Shown here piece after piece: positions 3,715 to 64,000 of a stretch of 64,000 bases of DNA. The DNA comes from Octopus vulgaris (Eukaryota). Position 1 is the stretch's first letter, and every line of letters begins with the position of its first letter. The notes beneath the pieces are model-generated. The model ran no database searches. It saw only the letters and a list, made by a program, of their open reading frames with translations, and was not told where the DNA came from. The position numbers and the translations under genes were made by a program. The stretch lies in the NCBI GenBank assembly GCA_951406725.2, contig OX597832.1:6448001-6512000 (forward strand), read 5' to 3'.

Positions 3715-4216
3715 AAATAGAGATTACAAATCTTTAAGAATTTGCTTTTTCATTTTTCTTAAAGAAACACTCAAATCCCCTTCCCCAACCTCCACCCGTC
3801 AACTCCGATGTTTTAACTCAGAAAAATAAAAACTCAGAATGTTTCTTTCCACTGATGAAATAGCAGACGTCAAAAATATCAGACCACCACCAGAAATCCT
3901 GACATGCTTGAAACAATAGCTAAACGACATTAGTTCTGGAAAAACTTCCGGCTTTCAAAAACACTGAAGTGTTTTTGAAAGCCGGGAAGTTTTTCCAGAA
4001 CTAATGTCGTTTAGCTATTGTTTCAAGCATGTTAGGATTTCTGGTGGTGGTCTGATATTTTTGACGTCTGCTATTTCATCAGTGGAAAGAAACATTCTGA
4101 GTTTTTATTTTTTTAATGCAGGGAGGTGATGGGTGGGGGGTGGAAGGAACATTGAGTGTTTCTTAAAGAAAAATTAAAAGTTAAAGAAACAAAATTTCCC
4201 AGATTCATAATCTCTG
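3715..4216. repeat. Foldback / MITE-like palindrome with about 145-bp near-perfect inner arms
   Basis: 3822-3965 is the reverse complement of 3968-4112 around a 2-nt loop. More diverged outer arms extend to about 3715 and 4216. Confidence 0.85.
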
Positions 4217-28560: not shown

Positions 28561-29067
28561 AAACAAAAGAATAAGTTCCAAAAACAAATTATTTCTTTTA
28601 TTATTATTTTTCTTACTTCATCTTCATTGTTATTTTCCTTTCACAGGTTACACAGATAACACTTTTGGTTTTCTCTCTTTTCTGATTTTCTCTCCCACCC
28701 TTCCCTATTCTTCTTCTCTCCCCTTCACTGTTCCCTCTCTCTCACTCCTCCTCCTCGACTCTCTCGTCACTGACACGTGATGAGAGGGAATCCATCTTTC
28801 CAACTACTACCTTCACAAAGACTAAACGGGCTTATCCTCTCTCTTCATAAGCTCATCTCCTTAAACATTCAGAATAATTTTTCCATAGTCTTGGCTTAAC
28901 AGCCCTCATCGTTTGTTTTTACTGTTTTGTTCTCATTTTTCTGTCTTTTACTGTTTTTACTTTTTTTCTTGTTTTTAACTGTTTTGTTCTTACTGTCCTG
29001 TTCTTGTTACCACTTTCCCCCTCTGCAAAAAATGCCAAATTTTATTAAATTTGCTTTGCGGGAAGGA

Positions 29068-29144
29068 CTGTTTCAATGAAGTCACGCCTTGTCCTTACCT
29101 TCAAAACATGGAGTAGATGAAACAGGGACAACTGAAGAAGGGGA
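29068..29144 (+). ncRNA. Rearranged (non-circularly permuted) hammerhead-like motif, core-mutated copy
   Basis: Homolog of 63775-63850. Extra helix ctgtttca/tgaaacag, stem I ttgtcc/ggacaa, CTGAAGA at 29132. GAAA reads AAAA and GUH reads GCC. Confidence 0.55.
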
Positions 29145-29432
29145 ATATTCTTTTTGTTGTATGTCTCGTTTCTCTGGTTTTTTTTCGTTGTTTGAAAAAA
29201 AGTTCATTTCTAAGTTTTTGTTTTTATGTTTTCGTTTCTTTTTGTGTTCAACGTTTTTTTGATGTCCTGTACCCATATATGCATGTATATAGAGAGAATT
29301 CACGAAAAAAAACAAAAGATGAAGACAGGTGGTGTAGAAAACAAACAAGTGTATATATGCATTTATATATACATATATATGTAGGTATGTACATATATAT
29401 ATATGTATATATGCATATAGTTATATATTATT

Positions 29433-63270: not shown

Positions 63271-63483
63271 ATATATATATATATATATATGCATACATAC
63301 AAACATATATGTACGTACCTACATCTACATGTATATATACATGCATATATAAATATATATACGTGTGTATAGGACACCAAATAGACGTAGAACTCAACGA
63401 GAAACGAAAACGTAAAAACAGCATGGAACGGACCATTCCTTTAACAACGGAAAAACAGTACAAGACAACTACACAAGGAAAAA

Positions 63484-63559
63484 TCCCCTTCATCAGCCGT
63501 CCCTAGTTCAACTCCAGCGTGTTTCGAAGGTGAGGACAGAACATGTCTCATCGAACTAG
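63484..63559 (-). ncRNA. Rearranged hammerhead-like motif, inverted copy
   Basis: Reverse complement of 63775-63850 with two substitutions, one of which creates a mismatch in stem III. Confidence 0.6.
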
Positions 63560-63774
63560 TCCAAAAAAAAAATTTTTCCTCGTCTAGGCTTATAGGCCCT
63601 CTTTATTTGTTTTCCTGTCCTGTTTCTATTCCTTCTTGTAATTGTATTTTTATTTTGTATTTGTTTTTAATTGTATTGTTTTTACGTCCTGTTTTTGTCA
63701 CTTCCCCCCCCTTTTTTTTTCCTTGTTTTTACCCCTCTGCAAAGGAATTTTATTTAATTCTTTCGCTGGAAGGA

Positions 63775-63850
63775 CTAGTTCGACGAGACATGTTCTGTCC
63801 TCACCTTCGAAACATGCTGGAGTTGAACTAGGGACGGCTGATGAAGGGGA
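63775..63850 (+). ncRNA. Rearranged (non-circularly permuted) hammerhead ribozyme candidate, intact core
   Basis: Order: catGT-T (63789-63794), stem I ctgtcc, ccttc-GAAA-catg (63804-63816), ggacgg-CTGATGA-agggg (63832-63849). Extra helix 63775-63784 pairs with 63822-63831. Confidence 0.65.
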
Positions 63851-64000
63851 TTTTTCCTTGTGTAGTTGTCTTGTACTCTGTTTTTTCGTTGTTAAAGGAA
63901 TGGTCCGTTCCATGCTGTTTATTCGTTTCTCGTTGAGTTCTACGTCTATTTGTGGTGTCCTGTACACACGTATATATATTTATATATGCACGTATATATA

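What the first reader, a model, noticed from the sequence alone, without database searches (positions are those of the whole stretch)
63775..63850. Repeat-borne hammerhead ribozyme with a scrambled (non-circularly permuted), pseudoknotted strand order
Seen: all hammerhead core elements are present but in reverse cyclic order. Strand Z (stem III 3' arm catgt, U17, stem I arm ctgtcc, 63789-63800) comes first. Strand Y (ccttc-GAAA-catg, 63804-63816) follows after a 3-nt linker. Strand X (ggacgg-CTGATGA-agggg, 63832-63849) comes last. Stem III (acatg/catgt, 5 bp) and stem I (6 bp) pair in exact register around the core. An extra 10-bp helix (ctagttcgac/gttgaactag) directly abuts stem I. The diverged copy at 29068-29144 keeps the same layout with compensatory changes: the extra helix is ctGTttca/tgaaACag versus ctAGttcg/tgaaCTag, and stem I is TTgtcc/ggacAA versus CTgtcc/ggacGG. 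Established: hammerhead types I, II and III use orders XYZ, YZX and ZXY, so ZYX is none of them and standard descriptors would miss it; stems I and II lie side by side in the folded ribozyme, so a short Z-to-Y linker is plausible. Rare natural non-circular permutations have been reported, and I cannot tell whether this family is among them. Inference: a self-cleaving module of a Penelope-like or retrozyme-like repeat. Weak points: stem II needs an extra A after A9 and G-U pairs, and ccttc could instead pair with gaagg and sequester the core.
Basis: partly seen in the sequence, partly recalled or inferred. Interest (0 to 1): 0.85.

Follow-up and report, generated by a model that had tools for sequence, protein, structure and literature searches.

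The report
Split-core hammerhead ribozyme of octopus retrotransposons
This repeat carries a likely self-cutting RNA (a hammerhead ribozyme) with its parts in an order not found in the papers searched; the same layout sits in thousands of repeat copies in this genome and at the tails of Naiad retrotransposons, which were reported to lack standard hammerheads.

Summary
The hammerhead core and stems I, III and the extra helix are real, in the S-G-C order of Eckert 2023. The strand before GAAA pairs with a strand upstream of the motif (63769-73), not the one after CUGAUGA. So the backbone is broken between A9 and G10.1, inside the block Eckert assumed unbreakable. U16.1 (101 of 103) and a non-G cleavage base (103 of 103) appear without being required. 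The motif sits in a 784-nt non-coding Penelope-like repeat. Three patterns give 8527, 5923 and 699 genome hits (controls 112, 506, 2). It also lies in Naiad 3' UTRs here. By eye, 6 of 21 published Naiad 3' ends have this form and 5 have type CSG. Copy 5' ends pile up just 3' of the predicted cut (29 of 137, versus 7 of 108 upstream), hinting at cleavage in vivo. Cleavage is untested, and no helper element was found for this family.

The parts
63769..63773 (+). Stem II 5' strand (G10.1 onward), moved upstream of the motif; pairs with 63804-63808
   Evidence: 5 Watson-Crick pairs; covariation
63775..63784 (+). [quoted passage not shown]
   Evidence: 10 bp; cognate versus swapped partners, 0 of 100000 permutations as high
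63789..63800 (+). Block S: stem III strand, U16.1 (63793), U17 (63794, predicted cut 3' of it), stem I strand
63804..63816 (+). Block G: stem II 3' strand with C11.1, GAAA, stem III strand
63822..63831 (+). 3' strand of the joining helix
63832..63844 (+). First half of block C: stem I strand and CUGAUGA; stem II does not follow it
63845..63858 (+).
   Evidence: predicted only, -3.9 kcal/mol; not conserved in all families
63565..64000 (+). 5'-truncated copy of the 784-nt non-coding repeat (family A, unit positions 191 onward); runs about 130 nt past the window end into a (TA)n tract
63275..63562 (-). Inverted 5'-truncated copy with a second ribozyme that has lost most of its upstream stem II strand
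29062..29143 (+). Ribozyme of related family B, same layout, core mutated (G12A, U16.1C); inside a copy spanning at least 28878-29291

Best explanation
This is a likely self-cleaving hammerhead ribozyme with a split core block, carried by a short non-coding repeat that is likely a non-autonomous Penelope-like element of the Naiad type. Its strands run: stem II 5' strand, joining-helix strand, block S, block G, joining-helix strand, stem I strand, CUGANGA. This is the pseudoknotted cyclic order of types SGC and CSG, opened between A9 and G10.1. The joining helix would hold stems I and II together as in the tested SGC and CSG ribozymes, and the RNA would cut after U63794. The cut would give some transcripts a new 5' end and, in tandem copies, release unit-length RNA for reverse transcription. 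Shown here: the four helices, their covariation, the core residues, the repeat anatomy, the link to Naiad ORFs for one family, and the pile-up of copy ends. Inferred: folding, cleavage, its role in transposition, and the helper element.
For: Upstream stem II has 4 or more Watson-Crick pairs in 72 of 84 distinct instances, the downstream strand in 0 of 84. Over 10 strand types, cognate versus swapped pairing: 0 of 100000 permutations as high for upstream, 31797 for downstream. On a MAFFT alignment of 17 representatives not fitted to structure: upstream 92.9% paired, 28 double changes, covariation 0.868, 0 of 500 shuffles; downstream 69.1%, 5, 0.305, 50 of 500; stems I+II+III 93.8%. U16.1 in 101 of 103 and no G at position 17 in 103 of 103, neither demanded. 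The 1-nt link from stem II to the joining helix matches the HRIMA-1 alignment. 19 of 30 loci picked by likeness to a Naiad-type protein tail carry the ribozyme downstream on the same strand. By eye, 6 of 21 published Naiad 3' ends have the split form, and in 4 of them the strand after CUGANGA cannot form stem II. Copy 5' ends: 29 of 137 in the bin -2..+15 from the cut, 7 of 108 in the next bin upstream, 12 of 149 in the next downstream; in the 109 copies fetched after the bins were chosen, p=0.002 and 0.025.
Against: No cleavage data. With G-U allowed, the downstream strand reaches 4 pairs in 44 of 84 instances, mostly the window's own family group, and 7 of 500 shuffles reach its pairing level. 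In these families the core's own GAAGG can pair with the same strand as strongly and would kill the fold. The minimum-energy nested fold of the window RNA forms the joining helix and an extended stem III but neither stem I nor stem II (the program cannot model pseudoknots). Families within one genome are related, so covariation cells are not independent events. CUGANGA and CGAAA were part of the search patterns, so their conservation in G000 is partly built in. About 100 of 159 copies run through the ribozyme, and stalling or template switching at the helices could also pile up ends; several inverted junctions use stem complementarity. All Naiad ORF pieces seen were decayed (open frames under 300 aa), and the young intact Penelope-like family found has a canonical type I hammerhead. 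The RT match is weak (RVT_1 E 0.016, below cut-off). Among the published split forms, one has stem I of only 2 bp and one has U at C11.1.
Confidence: 0.72

Rival explanations
1. In the window's family it is a plain type-SGC hammerhead: stem II forms with the Gs after CUGAUGA-A, and the upstream strand is an inhibitor or a leftover.
For: An extra base after A9 is normal in HRIMA-1 and in PLE hammerheads. 4 pairs are possible with G-U in 44 of 84 instances.
Against: 0 of 84 instances reach 4 Watson-Crick pairs and there is no cognate signal. Many families have no possible downstream partner. The joining helix uses an upstream strand, not the strand after stem II as in SGC.
Confidence: 0.1
2. The fold is conserved but does not cleave, or hardly: it is a hammerhead-shaped signal for the retrotransposon's enzyme, and copy ends pile up because reverse transcriptase stalls there.
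For: No activity data. Most copies read through the site. PLE minimal hammerheads cleave poorly in vitro (PMC4209133). A break between A9 and G10.1 is untested.
Against: U16.1 and H17 are kept as the chemistry demands. Ends fall off sharply at the predicted cut, not at the 3' strands a polymerase meets first. The related SGC and CSG forms cleave (PMC10085705).
Confidence: 0.15
3. Chance match in repeat DNA.
For: None beyond the patterns building in the core.
Against: Hits exceed controls 12- to 350-fold; four helices covary; same layout in consensus sequences built by others from ORFs.
Confidence: 0.01

Closest known systems
Type-SGC hammerhead (HRIMA-1 and variant), Eckert et al. 2023, PMC10085705
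   Same: [quoted passage not shown]
   Different: There stem II and the joining-helix strand follow CUGAUGA; here both lie 5' of block S, so block C is cut. That paper found no type-SGC RNA in genomes of known organisms; here there are thousands of copies in an animal genome.
Type-CSG hammerhead, PMC10085705
   Same: Same cyclic order and joining helix; 5 of 21 published Naiad 3' ends read by eye (nematodes, spider) fit it.
   Different: Known from two unique soil-metagenome sequences; block C is intact. The window's form has the stem I strand and CUGANGA moved to the 3' end.
Naiad Penelope-like elements, Craig et al. 2021, PMC8557442
   Same: 5' truncation, partial tandems, inverted upstream copies, (TA)n targets; the octopus Naiad consensus has this ribozyme in its 3' UTR, flagged there only as HHR_half_core.
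   Different: Reported to lack canonical hammerheads. The window's family has no ORF and different helix sequences, and its helper was not found.
PLE minimal type I hammerheads (PMC4209133) and non-LTR retrozymes (PMC7229834; bioRxiv 10.64898/2026.07.22.740005)
   Same: Hammerhead in a Penelope-like or non-autonomous repeat.
   Different: Those are circular-order type I with a weak helix III and work as dimers; this has a 5-bp stem III and looks monomeric. The unit is 784 nt and mostly dispersed.

Membership tests
Hammerhead ribozyme (any topology) | CUGANGA, GAAA, G10.1-C11.1, U16.1, H17 | tested here: met
   G10.1-C11.1 in 15 of 17 aligned rows
Hammerhead ribozyme (any topology) | Stems I, II, III in register round the core, with covariation | tested here: met
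   93.8% of 210 cells paired, 67 double changes
Hammerhead ribozyme (any topology) | Site-specific self-cleavage after N17 | not testable with these tools
   only indirect: pile-up of copy ends
Hammerhead types I, II, III | Circular order C-G-S | tested here: not met
   order is S-G-C; no Rfam match
Type-SGC hammerhead | Order S, G, C with short S-to-G linker | tested here: met
   3-nt linker 63801-03 (PMC10085705)
Type-SGC hammerhead | Intact block C: stem II strand directly after CUGANGA | tested here: not met
Type-SGC hammerhead | Joining helix formed by strands flanking block C | tested here: not met
   one strand lies upstream of block S
Penelope-like element (non-autonomous) | 5' truncation, partial tandems, inverted upstream copies, (TA)n targets | tested here: met
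   extra tandem or inverted piece in 12 of 30 loci; (TA)4 within 30 nt of the 3' end in 25 of 30
Naiad clade | ORF with N-terminal GIY-YIG, CxC and DKA motifs, C-terminal RT | tested here: not met
   window family has no ORF over 110 codons; linked to Naiad only by ribozyme type and anatomy
Naiad clade | Mobilised by a Naiad enzyme | tested here: inconclusive
   no intact Naiad ORF seen; no 3'-end likeness to the young PLEs beyond simple repeats
Non-LTR retrozyme | Type I hammerhead in 150-450-nt tandem units, expressed as circles | tested here: not met
   not type I, 784-nt unit; circles not testable with contigs

The most novel reading that the evidence does not exclude
A seventh natural hammerhead topology, with the core block broken between A9 and G10.1, is active and, with type CSG, is the overlooked 3'-UTR ribozyme of many Naiad retrotransposons in molluscs, cnidarians, ctenophores, nematodes and spiders; its cut sets the 5' end of templates that are copied into the genome.
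Probability: 0.55. Interest if true: 0.88.

Novelty: new variant of a known kind. Interest (0 to 1): 0.8.

Why it matters
It would extend hammerhead topology beyond the six orders thought possible and show that the A9-G10.1 link is dispensable. It would move non-circular hammerheads from rare environmental contigs to thousands of copies in named animal genomes. It would change the statement that Naiads spread without hammerheads, which was used to ask whether these ribozymes only parasitise Penelope-like elements. The 90-nt RNA can be tested in one transcription gel, and copy-end maps give a genomic readout of cleavage.

Tried and rejected
Rfam scan: nothing at the motif. Sequencing runs: no RNA holder listed on record; four guessed-RNA runs were contigs, which cannot show ends or strand, so no evidence either way on expression or cleavage. 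Metagenome pattern scan: 120 loci, 1 flagged by the script, and its printed sequence looks like chance in coding DNA; only an eighth of the collection was scanned. Protein search with the decayed RT piece: no hit. Pfam on ORF pieces: nothing over cut-off. Search for a helper: Naiad pieces all decayed; the young 781-aa Penelope-like family has a canonical hammerhead and no 3' likeness. A fifth helix between the upstream purine run and the U/C run after the core was considered and dropped, since the upstream strand covaries with the strand before GAAA. Sixteen apparent copy ends at -40 to -43 are edge effects of the 105-base stretches and were read as running through. Ten of 21 Naiad 3' ends viewed gave no fit in the part shown. 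Earlier findings of the scan: two look-ups, nothing. Literature searches that found no report of this form; subscription papers are largely missing from that library.

Full report
Observation. The window holds the core and three of the four helices as described (pairs re-read): stem III 63789-93/63812-16, stem I 63795-800/63832-37, a 10-bp helix 63775-84/63822-31, GAAA 63809-12, CUGAUGA 63838-44, and GUU ending at 63794. The core pattern hits the window twice against 0.02 expected. The second hit is an inverted truncated copy at 63275-63562. The copy near 29062 has the same layout but G12A and U16.1C. Rfam has nothing here.

Known frame. Eckert et al. 2023 (PMC10085705; I read parts 1-6 of 8 of the text, supplement parts 8 and 18 of 42, and two supplement searches) divide the hammerhead into blocks C, G and S, assume each is unbroken, and validate types SGC and CSG. 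[quoted passage not shown] Their SGC descriptor asks for CUGAUGAG or CUGAUGAUG followed by stem II and a G-to-C spacer of at most 15 nt. In their alignment stem II is followed by one base and then the helix that joins stems I and II.

The repeat. The window lies in a 2.8-Gb genome; it is probably an Octopus, since it holds 3' ends matching the published octopus Naiad consensus. The first motif had 1418 first-look candidates and the second 2176, 40 scored each. Family A is a 784-nt unit with no ORF over 110 codons. Of 30 loci, 12 have an extra tandem or inverted piece and 25 end in (TA)n. These are the features Craig et al. 2021 give for Naiad and other Penelope-like insertions (PMC8557442; passages, section 6, supplement part 1 and five supplement searches). 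An exact 19-mer of family A occurs 602 times and an 18-mer of another family 4991 times, controls 0.

Stem II is elsewhere. Craig et al. say Naiads lack canonical hammerheads but flag some as HHR_core or HHR_half_core. The octopus Naiad consensus has the window's layout with different helix sequences, and the strand before GAAA pairs over 6 bp with a strand upstream of the joining helix. The window has the same: 63769-73 with 63804-08, then one A, then the joining helix. Three patterns found 699, 8527 and 5923 genome hits against controls of 2, 112 and 506. Of 181 pattern hits in fetched DNA, 84 distinct ones had stems I and III, in 21 clusters. Upstream pairing of 4 or more Watson-Crick pairs held in 72 of 84, downstream in 0 of 84; with G-U allowed, 76 and 44. 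Swapping partners among 10 strand types gave 0 of 100000 permutations as high upstream and 31797 downstream. I aligned 17 sequences: the window copy in place of its cluster's representative and 16 other representatives, leaving out two truncated copies and two from another element class. The joining helix also passes a swap test over 18 representatives. With position 17 placed by the stems alone, 101 of 103 instances have U16.1 and none has G17. These families share ancestry, so the counts are not independent events.

Topology. The order is stem II 5' strand, joining strand, S, G, joining strand, stem I strand, CUGANGA. It is a rotation of SGC and CSG opened between A9 and G10.1. That position tolerates an extra base in a viroid hammerhead (PMC3705267, passages) and in PLE hammerheads (PMC4209133, passages); whether it tolerates a break is untested. 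The local junction at the far ends of stems I and II is the same as in the tested forms (inference).

Link to Naiads. In this genome 19 of 30 loci chosen by likeness to a Naiad-type protein tail carry the ribozyme downstream on the same strand; one such locus shows RT motifs, with only a weak Pfam match. I read by eye the last 500-600 nt of 21 of 54 published Naiad consensi, chosen mostly from flagged ones, with record names inferred from file order. Six fit the split form (two octopus, squid, box jellyfish, hydrozoan, ctenophore; the squid one has U at C11.1 and the ctenophore one a 2-bp stem I). Five fit type CSG with a joining helix (four nematode, one spider). Ten gave no fit. These readings were not run through a tool.

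Sign of cleavage. In 82 pattern-picked copies, 18 had their 5' end in the 15 nt after the predicted cut. I then sampled with patterns lying 3' of the ribozyme: the first 100 of 602 family A hits and the first 59 of 4991 hits of the largest family. Ends per copies at risk were 9 of 158, 12 of 149, 29 of 137, 7 of 108 and 1 of 101 in successive 18-nt bins, the third starting at -2 from the cut. In the 109 copies fetched after the bins were set, the peak held (19 of 93 versus 3 of 74, p=0.002; versus 9 of 102, p=0.025). This fits templates that begin at the cut. Stalling or template switching at the helices could also contribute, ends are uncertain by about 3 nt, and about 100 of 159 copies read through.

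Against. There is no activity assay. In family A the core's own GAAGG can take the same strand (-7.7 versus -7.3 kcal/mol); the upstream strand is made first and a small 3' hairpin may mask the competitor, but this is inference. No helper was found: Naiad ORF pieces seen are decayed, and the young intact Penelope-like family carries a canonical type I hammerhead. Sequencing runs were uninformative.

Novelty. Nine searches found no report of a split block C or of SGC/CSG ribozymes in animal genomes or Naiads. Passages of PMC13725137, PMC10162972 and PMC7229834, and the abstract and passages of bioRxiv 10.64898/2026.07.22.740005 (supplements not seen), do not describe it. Subscription papers are mostly outside the library. 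Verdict: a new variant of the hammerhead, structure about 85% likely right, full mechanism about 72%, interest 0.8.

Noticed in passing
L168:3960-4030 and L245:1545-1615: The same split ribozyme lies just after the stop of an ORF that looks like the end of a restriction-endonuclease-type non-LTR element (class recalled, not confirmed by a call), so the form may not be limited to Penelope-like elements.
   Followed up: partly
L062 and L090, about 1460-1560: S-G-C ribozyme after a similar ORF, in which the best stem II partner lies about 16 nt downstream of CUGAUGA: another way of loosening the A9-G10.1 link. Two copies seen.
   Followed up: partly
L238-L240, L249, L234: A young Penelope-like family with an intact 781-codon RT-GIY-YIG frame in many copies; L234 shows a canonical type I hammerhead with palindromic helix III.
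   Followed up: partly
L169, L029, L055, L245: Another repeat family with a GAAA box shortly before what looks like a minimal type I PLE hammerhead.
   Followed up: no
L388/L389, L393/L394, L443, L120, L149: Junctions between inverted copies often fall inside the ribozyme, some at stretches made complementary by its stems, suggesting template switching there.
   Followed up: partly
PMC8557442 File S5, hemichordate Naiad 3' ends: Two hemichordate Naiads share a different conserved GC-rich 3' motif that does not fit a hammerhead; possibly another structured RNA.
   Followed up: no
window 3847-4087: Long, nearly perfect inverted repeat, probably a MITE-like element; it gives sub-threshold miRNA matches.
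   Followed up: no
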